Of a DNA stretch of 64,000 nucleotides, positions 6,975 through 8,657 are shown in pieces. Under the pieces are notes generated by a model. That model saw nothing but the letters and a program-made list of their open reading frames with translations, did not search any database and was not told where the DNA came from. The DNA lies in contig CBDANW010000002.1 in NCBI GenBank assembly GCA_965197825.1, forward strand, positions 213,271-277,270, in the 5' to 3' direction. The position numbers and the translations under genes were made by a program. Within the stretch, counting starts at the first letter, position 1. The number at the start of each line of letters is the position of its first letter. The DNA is from Candidatus Marinacidobacterales bacterium. GTDB lineage: Bacteria > Acidobacteriota > Vicinamibacteria > Marinacidobacterales > DATDRI01.

Positions 6975-7034
6975 CAATATGACCTTATAGTTGTTTTGAT
7001 AGTGGTCATGTTTATAGTCTATAATAAGACTATA
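6975..7034 (+). promoter_or_regulatory. AT-rich promoter/operator region with two palindromes upstream of the antitoxin-like gene
   Basis: Perfect inverted repeat tatagtct-ataata-agactata (7013-7034) overlapping the ATG. Second inverted repeat atgacc...ggtcat (6979-7009). Local GC far below the window mean. Confidence 0.5.
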
Positions 7035-7519
7035 TGATCAAAGTTAACCTCTCCGACGCCAAGTCGCGCCTCTCGCAATACCTCGACAGCGTTGAACGTG
7101 GCGAGACCGTGATCCTCTGCCGGCGCAACGTTCCCATCGCAGAGATCCGCCCGTTGCCAAAGCTGCCGTCGGAGCTTCGACCGATCGGCACCGACCCGGA
7201 CCTTGTGGTTCCGGACAGCTTCTTCGAGCCACTTCCGGAGGATCTGCTAGGCGCGTTCGAGGGCGGCGGTGCCGACAACTGGAGCGAACCCCCGAGTCAG
7301 AAAGAGGGTAACGCGTTTGAGCAACTGAAACGCCAGTGGGCCAACAGGCTCAGGGCGTTCTACGACCAAAAAAAACACCCCTCGCATCACGAGGATCCGC
7401 CGAACCTGAGCGACGTGATCGCGCACCTCCAGGCACCGCGTTCCGCGGACCAGGGAGCACACGTGGCAAGTGCTGAGAAATACCTGATGGCTGCGCACGG
7501 GAGAAGGGTTGGCAGATGA
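7034..7519 (+). CDS. Phd/YefM (VapB-type) antitoxin-like protein with an unusual ~80-aa C-terminal extension (161 aa)
   Basis: N-terminus [41 protein letters not shown] and ...[18 protein letters not shown] are typical Phd-type VapB. ORF continues another 80 aa. Stop overlaps the next start (ATGA). Confidence 0.65.
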
Positions 7520-8271
7520 GTAGGAGGCTGATCGACTTCACTCTGCATCGTGCAGGGTGGGGGAACAGGCATTCGCTTGATCTAGATGTTCGGCAGATTG
7601 AAGCGGCGCGTGATCTCGAAACGCTGCCTAACCTCTTGCGGGTCAAGGCCAATCGACCGCTGGCCGACATCCTGTCGTGGCCTGAGCGTTCCGGTTGCGC
7701 GCTGCAGTGCCAGTATTCGCTCAGTCCAGTCGGCGGCAATAACCCAGATACGCTCATGATTGCGGAAGCTGTCGAGTGGAGTTGTAGCGGGGAAACGTTT
7801 GAGATCGAGCTCGTCAAGGGGTGGCCCGGCGAGCCGCACTACTGGGGCAACCGGTCGGTGTATGAGGAAGAAGTCGAGGCGGCCATCCACGGCATGGCGC
7901 CGAACGGCAAACTACAGTTGCTGAGTGTCCCCGCAGGACGCGACACCCATGAAACGCCACGAGCACGGATCCTGAAGTCCAGAGACGATACAGCGGTACT
8001 GTTCATCGCGCACTCACTAGAGGAGGCGGAGATCCTTTCGGGCGTCGTTGAGCGGTTGTGCGATACCGGTGTGTTGGTGCAACACACGGGTGATGTCTAT
8101 CCGCTGGACGGCTCATTGATGGTCGGCGCAAAGTACCAGCGGACTGATAAGAAAGCGTCGCTGGTCACACGGTGGCTCGGCGGCCACGGCACCCGCTGCC
8201 AGCAGGCAATCGAACAGCGGGTCGGAGCCCCGTGGCCCATCCCGGAGCGCTGGTCAGGGGTGTCGCCGTGA
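7516..8271 (+). CDS. Hypothetical 251-aa protein, middle gene of the antitoxin-X-VapC cassette; no motif recognised
   Basis: 756-bp uninterrupted ORF. 4-bp overlaps with both neighbours (ATGA at 7516, GTGA at 8268). Confidence 0.5.
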
Positions 8272-8657
8272 CGCTCCTGCTCGACACCTGCACGTTTCTC
8301 TGGCTGTTGTCCGATGATCCACGGCTGCCGTTGCGCGCCAGGACGGAGTGTCGTACCCCCTCGAACGCCGTGTACCTCAGCGCTCTCTCTGTGTGGGAGA
8401 TAACGATTAAGTATCGACTTGGCCGGTTGTCACTTCCTGCATCTCCGGCGTCGTTCGTCGCTAGTCGTCGCCAGCGGCTGCAGATCGAACCTCTACCGTA
8501 CGACGAACGGGACGCGGTGCACGACGTACTGCTGCCGCCGCATCATCGGGATCCGTTCGACCGGGGCTTGGTGTCCCAAGCGATCCTACGCGGCTTGACG
8601 ATCGTAACACCAGACCAGTTGATCGCACGCTATCCGGCCCCCGTACTCTGGCTGTGA
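8268..8657 (+). CDS. vapC: VapC-type PIN-domain toxin (ribonuclease)
   Basis: [20 protein letters not shown]... then ...LSALSVWEITIKYRLGRL...; GTG start overlapping the upstream stop. About 129 aa. Confidence 0.7.
   Translation: MTLLLDTCTFLWLLSDDPRLPLRARTECRTPSNAVYLSALSVWEITIKYRLGRLSLPASPASFVASRRQRLQIEPLPYDERDAVHDVLLPPHHRDPFDRGLVSQAILRGLTIVTPDQLIARYPAPVLWL

What the first reader, a model, noticed from the sequence alone, without database searches (positions are those of the whole stretch)
6975..8657. Three-gene translationally coupled cassette: extended Phd/YefM antitoxin - unknown 251-aa protein - VapC PIN toxin
Canonical vapBC loci are bicistronic, with an about 80-aa antitoxin directly upstream of the toxin. 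Here the Phd-type antitoxin core has the usual N-terminus ([17 protein letters not shown]...) and the usual C-terminal toxin-binding tail (...[16 protein letters not shown]) but then carries an extra about 80-aa extension. It overlaps ATGA with a 251-aa ORF of no recognisable family. That ORF in turn overlaps GTGA with a clear VapC PIN toxin. A pair of perfect palindromes sits over the first start codon, consistent with an autoregulated operator. This may be a tripartite toxin-antitoxin system (antitoxin - adaptor/chaperone/second effector - toxin, analogous in architecture but not sequence to TAC or tripartite ParDE/PasABC types). Alternatively it is an accessory gene captured between vapB and vapC. 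I know of no described family with this arrangement.
Basis: partly seen in the sequence, partly recalled or inferred. Interest (0 to 1): 0.8.

Follow-up and report, generated by a model that had tools for sequence, protein, structure and literature searches.

The report
Conserved three-gene Phd–unknown–PIN toxin-antitoxin cassette
This is a real three-gene toxin-antitoxin operon, conserved in one class of Acidobacteria, in which an ordinary antitoxin–PIN toxin pair has gained an extra antitoxin tail and a 251-residue partner protein found nowhere else; what that partner does is still unknown.

Summary
Three ORFs are present: 7034-7519 (161-aa Phd/YefM antitoxin), 7516-8271 (251 aa, no family hit) and 8268-8657 (129-aa PIN). 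They overlap by ATGA and GTGA.

The middle ORF is a real gene. It has about 110 homologues (52-80% identity), all from Vicinamibacteria MAGs, with dN/dS 0.33. In 27 of 27 genome loci it sits between the extended Phd gene and the PIN gene (or a PIN remnant). The 4-nt overlaps are kept in 18/22 and 22/22 intact loci.

The 82-aa antitoxin extension is also conserved (dN/dS 0.52). It is predicted as three helices that do not form a compact fold, and it occurs only in this family. A canonical two-gene relative exists (88-aa Phd plus a PIN 72% identical to this one). The extension and the middle gene therefore form an add-on module.

Best reading (inferred): a TAC-like tripartite system in which a non-SecB accessory protein docks on the antitoxin extension. 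A second-toxin role is not excluded.

Verdict: a new variant of a known kind, of moderate to high interest.

The parts
6962..8709 (+). Whole cassette as a discrete conserved unit: promoter/operator, three genes, and 52 nt of 3' flank
   Evidence: This 1748-bp stretch is 99.4% identical (11 mismatches) to a copy in MAG contig CBDCNP010000002.1 (L006). The flanks on both sides are unrelated. The right boundary coincides with the start of a MITE-like repeat.
6996..7025 (+). Sigma70-like promoter TTGATA-18-TATAAT. The -10 box ends 8 nt before the ATG, so the mRNA is probably leaderless (inferred).
   Evidence: 11/12 matches; 0.4 such sites expected in shuffles. A -35/-10 pair with the -10 box 7-9 nt before the start codon recurs in related loci.
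7004..7034 (+). Operator-like half-sites: GGTCAT (7004-7009) and the inverted repeat TATAGTCT-N6-AGACTATA (7013-7034) spanning the -10 box and ending on the start codon
   Evidence: I5: perfect 8-bp arms. GGTCA/TGACC-type half-sites occur at the same positions relative to -35, -10 and ATG in orthologous loci, with arm sequences changing in parallel, e.g. GGTCAACAATATGACC in L021. That Phd binds here is inferred.
7034..7270 (+). Antitoxin residues 1-79: a complete canonical Phd/YefM antitoxin, with the DNA-binding fold plus the PIN-binding tail ...[19 protein letters not shown]
   Evidence: Pfam and NCBIfam hits. AF2 gives the Phd fold at residues 1-38 and short helices at 61-64 and 69-75. Canonical 88-92-aa relatives end right after FEGG(G). 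dN/dS 0.11.
7271..7519 (+). Antitoxin residues 80-161: a family-specific C-terminal extension. A disordered linker is followed by three helices (91-114, 125-133, 140-156).
   Evidence: AF2: pTM 0.30, helices at pLDDT about 60-84, no compact fold. Conserved in all intact loci. dN/dS 0.52. A profile of the extension alone finds only proteins of this family.
7516..8271 (+). 251-aa middle protein ('Mid'), an orphan family. It has an N-terminal beta-barrel (about 1-100), a conserved loop (103-112), an alpha/beta domain (117-210), and a conserved but low-confidence tail (216-251, [14 protein letters not shown]...RW).
   Evidence: 110 homologues. 42 invariant columns among 35 sequences. dN/dS 0.33. 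AF2 pLDDT 71.7, pTM 0.68. No family or fold assignment.
8268..8657 (+). 129-aa VapC-type PIN toxin with GTG start, overlapping Mid by GTGA
   Evidence: PF01850. D6, E44, D95, D98 and D116 are invariant across loci. dN/dS 0.14. 72% identical to the PIN of a canonical bicistronic Phd-PIN locus, L037.

Best explanation
This is a conserved three-component derivative of a Phd/YefM-VapC(PIN) type II toxin-antitoxin operon, restricted to Vicinamibacteria (Acidobacteriota).

**Shown by sequence and comparison:**
- One promoter with operator-like inverted half-sites drives three translationally coupled genes.
- Antitoxin residues 1-79 are a complete canonical Phd antitoxin: a DNA-binding fold plus a PIN-binding tail.
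- The PIN keeps all its catalytic acidic residues.
- An 82-residue helical extension of the antitoxin and the 251-aa gene that follows it form an add-on module. It is absent from the closest canonical two-gene relatives and is never found apart from this operon.

**Inferred mechanism:**
- Phd represses the promoter and masks the PIN RNase through residues about 55-78.
- The helical extension is a docking element for the 251-aa protein. That protein acts as an accessory controller of the antitoxin (stabiliser, adaptor or sensor), forming a ternary complex.
- Whatever removes or occupies the 251-aa protein would expose or destabilise the antitoxin and free the PIN.
- The logic resembles toxin-antitoxin-chaperone (TAC) systems with their ChAD extension, but the partner is unrelated to SecB and its fold is unassigned.
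For: **Identity of the flanking genes.** Phd and PIN are confirmed by family hits.

**Mid is a real gene.** It has 110 homologues, 42 invariant columns and dN/dS 0.33.

**Strict synteny.** The order Phd-ext, Mid, PIN holds in 27/27 genome loci and in independent metagenome contigs.

**Conserved coupling.** The 4-nt overlaps are kept at 18/22 and 22/22 junctions.

**The extension is family-specific.** It is conserved and helical and occurs only in this family.

**Mid occurs nowhere else.** Nothing outside the family appears among 1.84 billion representative proteins, and nothing on viral contigs.

**A canonical relative exists.** It pairs an 88-aa Phd with a PIN 72% identical to this one.

**A natural variant supports the add-on reading.** In L028/P0209, seen on 5 contigs, the extension and Mid are both destroyed while Phd 1-79 and the PIN stay intact. 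The add-on is therefore lost as a pair, and the core pair can stand alone.

**Weak co-evolution signal.** After controlling for the other parts, pairwise divergence of the extension tracks Mid more closely (partial r 0.56) than any other pair of parts. This is weak evidence.

**Promoter and half-sites.** These are conserved across loci.

**TAC precedent.** A C-terminal antitoxin extension absent from chaperone-independent relatives is bound by the product of the adjacent third gene (PMC5105189; bioRxiv 10.1101/2024.02.24.581848).
Against: - No physical interaction was predicted or measured.
- Mid is not SecB-like and has no recognisable chaperone fold.
- Mid has many invariant polar residues (R12, R58, S59, Q64, C65, E84, E98, R113, E119, R180, R209, R227, Q229, E233, R245). 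That would also suit an enzyme or a toxin.
- Mid's gene position, directly after an antitoxin-like helical segment with an ATGA overlap, is also the classic antitoxin-toxin arrangement.
- The mirror-tree signal is confounded by linkage and by the wider dynamic range of the fast-evolving parts.
- Toxicity of the PIN was not tested.
Confidence: 0.5

Rival explanations
1. **Nested double TA.** The antitoxin is a fusion of two neutralising modules. Residues 1-79 neutralise the PIN and residues 90-156 neutralise Mid. Mid is a second toxin or effector of a new fold, so the layout is A1-A2 fusion, then T2, then T1.
For: - The extension directly precedes Mid with an ATGA overlap, as in antitoxin-toxin pairs.
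- The extension is helical, non-globular and fast-evolving, like toxin-binding regions of antitoxins.
- Mid has many invariant polar or charged residues, compatible with catalysis.
- The extension and Mid are lost together in L028.
- In L029-L032 one deletion removes the C-terminal half of Mid and the N-terminus of the PIN, while the antitoxin stays intact.
Against: - Mid evolves 2-3 times faster than the PIN (dN/dS 0.33 against 0.14).
- Mid is never found without the Phd-PIN frame or with another antitoxin, which is unlike mobile toxin domains.
- It resembles no known toxin or enzyme family or fold.
- In L020/P0046 the extension is split off from Phd by a frameshift while Mid and the PIN stay intact. 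A cis fusion to Mid could still neutralise it, so this is not decisive.
Confidence: 0.22
2. **Mid acts on the toxin side.** Mid binds the PIN, for example through its conserved Arg/Trp/Gly-rich C-terminal tail, and works as a specificity adaptor, co-nuclease subunit or second inhibitor of the PIN. The antitoxin extension would then have another role, such as oligomerisation or a degron.
For: - The Mid tail 216-251 is nearly invariant yet predicted disordered, typical of a segment that folds on a conserved partner.
- The PIN is the most conserved neighbour.
- The Mid-PIN GTGA overlap is kept in 22/22 loci.
Against: - The PIN is the same length as the PIN of the two-gene relative and 72% identical to it, with no added element.
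- The partial correlation between Mid and PIN divergence is the weakest but one of those tested (0.25).
- Co-loss of the extension and Mid with an intact PIN links Mid to the extension rather than to the PIN.
Confidence: 0.13
3. **Passenger gene.** Mid is functionally unrelated cargo that merely hitch-hikes inside a vapBC operon, and the extension is neutral sequence.
For: - The cassette lies in IS/MITE-dense DNA and behaves as a discrete movable unit.
- The family is narrow in taxonomy.
Against: - Synteny holds in 27/27 loci down to 52% identity.
- The 4-nt overlaps are conserved on both sides.
- Both Mid and the extension are under purifying selection.
- Neither element is ever seen elsewhere.
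Confidence: 0.05

Closest known systems
Canonical Phd/YefM-VapC (PIN) type II toxin-antitoxin pairs
   Same: - Phd-fold antitoxin N-terminus.
- The ...[16 protein letters not shown] toxin-binding tail.
- A PIN toxin with all acidic catalytic residues.
- Antitoxin-first operon with an operator-like inverted repeat over the promoter.
- A two-gene relative, L037, has a PIN 72% identical to this one.
   Different: About 1 kb of extra coding sequence lies between the end of the canonical antitoxin and the toxin start. It encodes an 82-aa antitoxin extension plus a 251-aa gene, so antitoxin and toxin are not adjacent.
Toxin-antitoxin-chaperone (TAC) systems: HigBA-SecB, CmdTAC (PMC5105189, PMC6377645, PMC11618068, bioRxiv 10.1101/2024.02.24.581848)
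   Same: - Tripartite.
- The antitoxin carries a C-terminal extension absent from two-gene relatives.
- The gene right after the antitoxin encodes the third component.
- The add-on (extension plus third gene) looks modular.
   Different: - The third protein is not SecB-like in sequence or fold.
- The extension is about 80 aa of three helices rather than a short aromatic ChAD motif.
- The toxin is a PIN and is encoded last; the order is A-X-T, not T-A-C.
- Dependence of the antitoxin on Mid is untested.
Three-component PIN systems with HTH and DUF955 (ImmA/IrrE-like protease) (PMC5499597)
   Same: A PIN-domain toxin in a three-gene unit with a DNA-binding component.
   Different: There is no HTH and no DUF955 or HExxH protease here. 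The antitoxin is Phd-type, and the third protein is an orphan family.
Other tripartite type II systems (PasABC, PaaR-PaaA-ParE, omega-epsilon-zeta, HipBST). This comparison rests on my own knowledge plus PMC10627512.
   Same: A third protein modulates or splits antitoxin or regulator functions within one operon.
   Different: In those systems the third component is a small regulator or a split-off domain of a known partner. Here it is the largest protein of the operon, has no relatives, and is paired with an antitoxin extension.

Membership tests
VapBC-type type II TA (Phd/YefM antitoxin + PIN toxin) | PIN-domain toxin with the conserved acidic active-site residues | tested here: met
   PF01850, E 2.2e-10. 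D6, E44, D95, D98 and D116 are invariant in aligned loci.
VapBC-type type II TA (Phd/YefM antitoxin + PIN toxin) | Antitoxin with an N-terminal DNA-binding fold and a C-terminal toxin-binding tail, encoded upstream | tested here: met
   PF02604 and TIGR01552 hits. AF2 gives the Phd fold at residues 1-38. The tail motif is shared with canonical 88-92-aa antitoxins.
VapBC-type type II TA (Phd/YefM antitoxin + PIN toxin) | Bicistronic: antitoxin and toxin genes adjacent or overlapping | tested here: not met
   A 251-aa gene and an 82-aa extension intervene in 27/27 loci.
VapBC-type type II TA (Phd/YefM antitoxin + PIN toxin) | Toxin inhibits growth and the antitoxin neutralises it | not testable with these tools
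   Needs expression assays.
TAC (toxin-antitoxin-chaperone) | Third gene encodes a SecB-like chaperone | tested here: not met
TAC (toxin-antitoxin-chaperone) | Antitoxin carries a C-terminal extension absent from partner-independent relatives | tested here: met
   The extension is present in all family members and absent from the canonical relatives P0228, P0236 and P0217.
TAC (toxin-antitoxin-chaperone) | Antitoxin folding or stability depends on the third protein binding the extension | not testable with these tools
The only indirect hints are co-loss in L028 and a partial correlation of 0.56.
PIN + HTH + DUF955 three-component systems | DUF955/ImmA-IrrE metalloprotease and an HTH partner | tested here: not met
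   No such domains in any of the three proteins. The family is defined in PMC5499597.
Known anti-phage defence systems (PADLOC-DB v2) | Any component matches a PADLOC model | tested here: not met
   No hits at E <= 1 for any of the three proteins.

The most novel reading that the evidence does not exclude
The antitoxin extension and the 251-aa protein form a previously undescribed, non-SecB 'addiction' or sensor module that has been bolted onto a VapBC pair. The orphan protein has a beta-barrel, an alpha/beta domain and a conserved disordered tail. It would bind the three-helix extension and couple an unknown signal (a ligand, a phage protein or proteolysis) to release of the PIN RNase. Alternatively, it is a toxin of a new fold, which would make this a two-toxin, one-antitoxin system.
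Probability: 0.4. Interest if true: 0.75.

Novelty: new variant of a known kind. Interest (0 to 1): 0.6.

Why it matters
Tripartite TA systems such as TAC and HipBST have shown how a third component turns a simple toxin-antitoxin pair into a regulated or phage-sensing device.

This cassette would be a clear, evolutionarily replicated case of the same upgrade. It applies to the most abundant TA family (VapBC) and uses a third protein with no relatives and no assigned fold.

Canonical two-gene relatives and natural 'reverted' variants both exist. The function of the add-on can therefore be tested directly by simple co-expression experiments.

If the middle protein turns out to be a sensor or a new toxin, it adds a new protein family to TA and defence biology. 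If not, it remains a lineage-restricted accessory gene of uncultured marine or soil Acidobacteria.

Tried and rejected
**Family searches for Mid.** Pfam, NCBIfam, PADLOC and PHROGs scans of Mid and of the extension gave nothing. Scanning all 35 family members individually gave only scattered noise.

**Sequence searches.**
- A profile against PDB sequences returned one chance hit.
- A profile against 1.84 billion representatives returned only the family itself, its fragments, and two repetitive false positives, P0118 and P0119.

**Fold searches.**
- Foldseek against PDB and BFVD found nothing at E <= 1e-3.
- I therefore rejected the ideas of a tail-tube mimic or decoy and of a PilZ domain. The PilZ RxxxR and DxSxxG motifs are also absent.
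- The afdb50 library was unavailable.

**Enzyme motifs considered by eye and dropped.** I looked for ART R-S-ExE, nucleotidyltransferase GS...DxD, RES and HExxH motifs. Spacing and fold do not fit, and no structural hits support them.

**Complex prediction.**
- I tried to use the natural frameshift fusion P0046 (extension plus Mid) as the query. MAFFT mis-aligned the Phd rows over Mid, so I abandoned this.

**Other checks.**
- A viral-contig scan found no relatives.
- Rfam found no RNA element inside the cassette.
- The read-through artefact and spurious-ORF explanations are rejected on conservation and dN/dS.
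Full report
**1. Observation**

Reading the sequence confirms three same-strand ORFs.
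- ORF1 is 7034-7519 (161 aa).
- ORF2 is 7516-8271 (251 aa). Its ATG overlaps the ORF1 stop as ATGA.
- ORF3 runs from GTG 8268 to 8657 (129 aa) and overlaps the ORF2 stop as GTGA.

ORF1 matches PF02604 PhdYeFM_antitox over residues 1-43 (E 2e-7) and TIGR01552. ORF3 matches PF01850 PIN (E 2.2e-10). ORF2 matches nothing in Pfam, NCBIfam, PADLOC or PHROGs.

The mechanical ORF list extends the PIN ORF upstream to GTG 8172. However, a start codon at the -4 overlap position is present in 22/22 related loci, so 8268 is the likely start.

Upstream lies a sigma70-like promoter, TTGATA-18-TATAAT (6996-7025, 11/12 matches). A perfect inverted repeat with 8-bp arms, TATAGTCT-N6-AGACTATA (7013-7034), spans the -10 box and ends on the A of the ATG.

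**2. The middle ORF is a real, conserved gene**

A search of 5.8 billion proteins gave 110 homologues. About 85 are full length (about 250 aa) at 52-80% identity, none has a Pfam domain, and all are named 'hypothetical'.

An alignment of 35 members has 42 invariant columns. The conserved motifs include RAGWG, LPNL, SWPxRSGxALQC, AEAV, EIELV, PxxWGxR, EEExEAA, AVLF and TRWLGGxGTRxQ...E...RW.

Pairwise Nei-Gojobori dN/dS values over about 200 locus pairs are:

| Segment | dN/dS |
|---|---|
| Phd residues 1-79 | 0.11 |
| PIN | 0.14 |
| Mid | 0.33 |
| Antitoxin extension | 0.52 |

All four segments are coding and under purifying selection. The two add-on parts evolve fastest.

**3. The arrangement is conserved**

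Gene calls around three distant homologues (53-65% identity) show the same order, Phd (162-163 aa), Mid, PIN. In L004 the antitoxin was simply not called.

A scan of one genome per GTDB species returned 27 loci, all from Vicinamibacteria/Acidobacteriota MAGs. The closest, L006, is from a Candidatus Marinacidobacterales MAG (class Vicinamibacteria).

tblastn with the four segments found Phd N-terminus, extension, Mid and PIN in the same order in 27/27 loci.

In 22 loci with full-length Mid and PIN, the Phd/Mid junction is a 4-nt overlap in 18 and the Mid/PIN junction is a 4-nt overlap in 22.

Several loci are decayed.
- L027 has Mid split by an insertion of about 2.7 kb.
- L029-L032 have deletions that remove the C-terminal half of Mid and the N-terminus of the PIN.
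- P0109 and P0102 are deletion or fusion remnants.
- L028 (antitoxin P0209, seen on 5 contigs) has lost most of the extension, and Mid is in pieces. Phd 1-79 and the PIN are intact.

**4. The add-on module**

The first 79 residues of the antitoxin are a complete canonical antitoxin. Related 88-92-aa antitoxins (P0228, P0236, P0217) end just after the ...[16 protein letters not shown] motif.

P0228 is encoded in a standard two-gene Phd(88 aa)-PIN(128 aa) operon with a 4-nt overlap. Its PIN is 72% identical to the window PIN, about as close as the most distant tripartite PINs at 74-78%.

The tripartite family therefore sits next to ordinary Phd-VapC pairs. It differs from them by about 1 kb, namely the extension plus Mid.

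A profile of the extension alone retrieves only members or fragments of this family. A Mid profile searched against 1.84 billion 50%-identity representatives retrieves only the family, its fragments and two repetitive false positives. Neither element exists outside this operon in current data, and none is on IMG/VR viral contigs.

**5. Structure predictions**

*Mid* (AF2, 35-sequence alignment; pLDDT 71.7, pTM 0.68):
- an N-terminal beta-barrel with two short helices (about 1-100);
- a conserved but low-confidence loop (103-112, GEPxYWGNR);
- an alpha/beta domain (117-210);
- a C-terminal tail (216-251) that is nearly invariant in sequence yet has pLDDT below 50. That pattern is typical of a segment that folds on a partner (my inference).

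*Antitoxin* (AF2, 36 sequences):
- Phd fold at residues 1-38;
- short helices at 61-64 and 69-75 (the toxin-binding region);
- a disordered stretch at 76-90;
- three helices at 91-114, 125-133 and 140-156.

With pTM 0.30, the extension is helical but not a compact domain. It looks like a partner-binding element.

**6. Regulation**

In orthologous loci a -35 box (TTGACA-like) is followed by GGTCAT. A second GGTCA/AGTCA half-site comes next, then a -10 box, an inverted TGACC/AGACT half-site, and finally the start codon 7-9 nt after the -10 box.

The arms change in parallel between loci: AGTCT/AGACT in the window and GGTCA/TGACC in L021. This fits an autoregulatory operator.

The short distance from the -10 box to the ATG, with no Shine-Dalgarno sequence, implies a leaderless mRNA. 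Both points are inferences.

**7. Mechanism**

*Shown:* a fixed, coupled three-gene operon; a complete canonical antitoxin-toxin core; and an add-on of extension plus Mid that is exclusive to this operon and can be lost as a pair.

*Inferred (my preferred reading, confidence about 0.5):* Mid docks on the helical extension and acts as an accessory controller of the antitoxin, analogous in logic to TAC systems. In TAC systems a C-terminal ChAD extension, absent from chaperone-independent antitoxins, is bound by the adjacent SecB-like chaperone. Competition for that chaperone by a phage protein triggers the toxin (PMC5105189; bioRxiv 10.1101/2024.02.24.581848).

Support for an accessory role rather than an independent toxin:
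- Mid never occurs without the Phd-PIN frame.
- Mid evolves 2-3 times faster than the PIN.
- Divergence of the extension tracks Mid best after controlling for the other parts (partial r 0.56). This is weak evidence.

Rivals:
- The nested two-toxin reading (about 0.22) is favoured by the antitoxin-like position and nature of the extension and by Mid's many invariant polar residues.
- A toxin-side adaptor or inhibitor role through the conserved tail is possible (about 0.13).
- A mere passenger gene is unlikely (about 0.05).

**8. Comparison with known systems**

The cassette meets the domain criteria of Phd-VapC type II TA systems but fails the bicistronic criterion.

It shares the 'antitoxin extension plus third gene' logic of TAC, but the third protein is not SecB-like and the gene order differs.

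The three-component PIN systems catalogued so far pair the PIN with HTH and DUF955 protease domains (PMC5499597), and those domains are absent here. Literature searches found no description of a Phd-X-PIN arrangement.

I therefore rate it a new variant of a known kind (a tripartite type II TA system) with an orphan third component.

**9. Context**

The window copy (6962-8709) is 99.4% identical to the L006 copy, but its flanks are unrelated. The cassette is therefore a discrete unit.

In the window it lies between an IS256-family transposase gene (4702-6012, minus strand) and truncated IS30- and IS3-like genes. It abuts a MITE-like element whose 34-bp terminal repeat occurs 27 times in the 64 kb.

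Other copies lie next to IS elements and MmeI-type restriction-modification genes, or in ordinary chromosomal surroundings.

**Verdict**

The role of the middle protein is unresolved but can be tested directly. Interest: 0.6.

Noticed in passing
window 3345-59636 (27 sites); paired sites at 8709-9027, 20571-20889, 37797-38115 and 44390-44707: A 34-bp repeat, CCGTCCTGTGCCAAAACTCGGCCCTTTTGAAA(G/T)A, occurs 27 times in the 64 kb (none expected by chance). Four (+)/(-) pairs lie about 285 bp apart, which suggests a MITE-like element of about 320 bp with terminal inverted repeats. One such element starts exactly at the right edge of the TA cassette. The repeat is absent from all 37 related loci held when I searched for it.
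   Followed up: partly
window 6962-8709 compared with L006 2447-4194: The cassette is 99.4% identical (11 mismatches) to a copy in MAG contig CBDCNP010000002.1, but the flanks on both sides are unrelated. The window is therefore a different insertion site or a different strain, and the cassette behaves as a discrete 1.75-kb unit.
   Followed up: partly
window 6742-6830 (+): A sub-threshold Rfam hit to group II intron domain V/VI (RF00029: 27.8 bits against a gathering score of 40, E 0.012). It lies about 200 bp upstream of the cassette and may be an intron remnant.
   Followed up: no
window 4702-6012 (-), 15004-16452 (+), 28119-29429 (-), 42290-43603 (+), 47537-48850 (+), 55353-56666 (+): There are repeated ORFs of about 436-482 aa. 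The two I tested (4702-6012 and 15004-16452) are IS256/Mutator-family transposases (PF00872). The other four are inferred from length alone. Truncated IS30-like (8998-9732) and IS3-like (9814-10389) genes follow the cassette. The window is unusually dense in IS elements.
   Followed up: partly
window 7020-7036, and the upstream regions of L005-L031: The -10 box ends 7-9 nt before the antitoxin start codon (ATG or GTG) in nearly all loci, and there is no Shine-Dalgarno sequence. The operon mRNA is probably leaderless.
   Followed up: partly
L029 3001-3742, L030 3001-3700, L031 3001-3669, L032 3001-3434: A diverged sub-clade carries similar but not identical deletions that join the N-terminal 102-140 residues of Mid to PIN residues 32+ or 88+. 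The full-length extended antitoxin is kept. These are decaying loci, or possibly an orphan antitoxin retained as a regulator.
   Followed up: partly
L038 8344-11034, L040 8715-11129, L004 338-3289 and 5302-5631: Some copies of the cassette lie next to MmeI-family (type IIL) restriction-modification genes and IS elements, i.e. a defence-island-like neighbourhood. Other copies (L001, L005) sit among housekeeping genes.
   Followed up: no
L034-L036 3001-3539: A closely related short Phd antitoxin (P0212, 91 aa, seen on 23 contigs) is followed by a HicB-like antitoxin gene with a 4-nt overlap and no adjacent toxin. This is an odd antitoxin-antitoxin pair.
   Followed up: no
L020 2522-3756 (proteins P0046 and P0200): A frameshift splits the antitoxin at about residue 105 and fuses the remainder of the extension in frame to Mid, giving a 311-aa gene call. 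This natural extension-Mid fusion could be used for structure prediction.
   Followed up: partly
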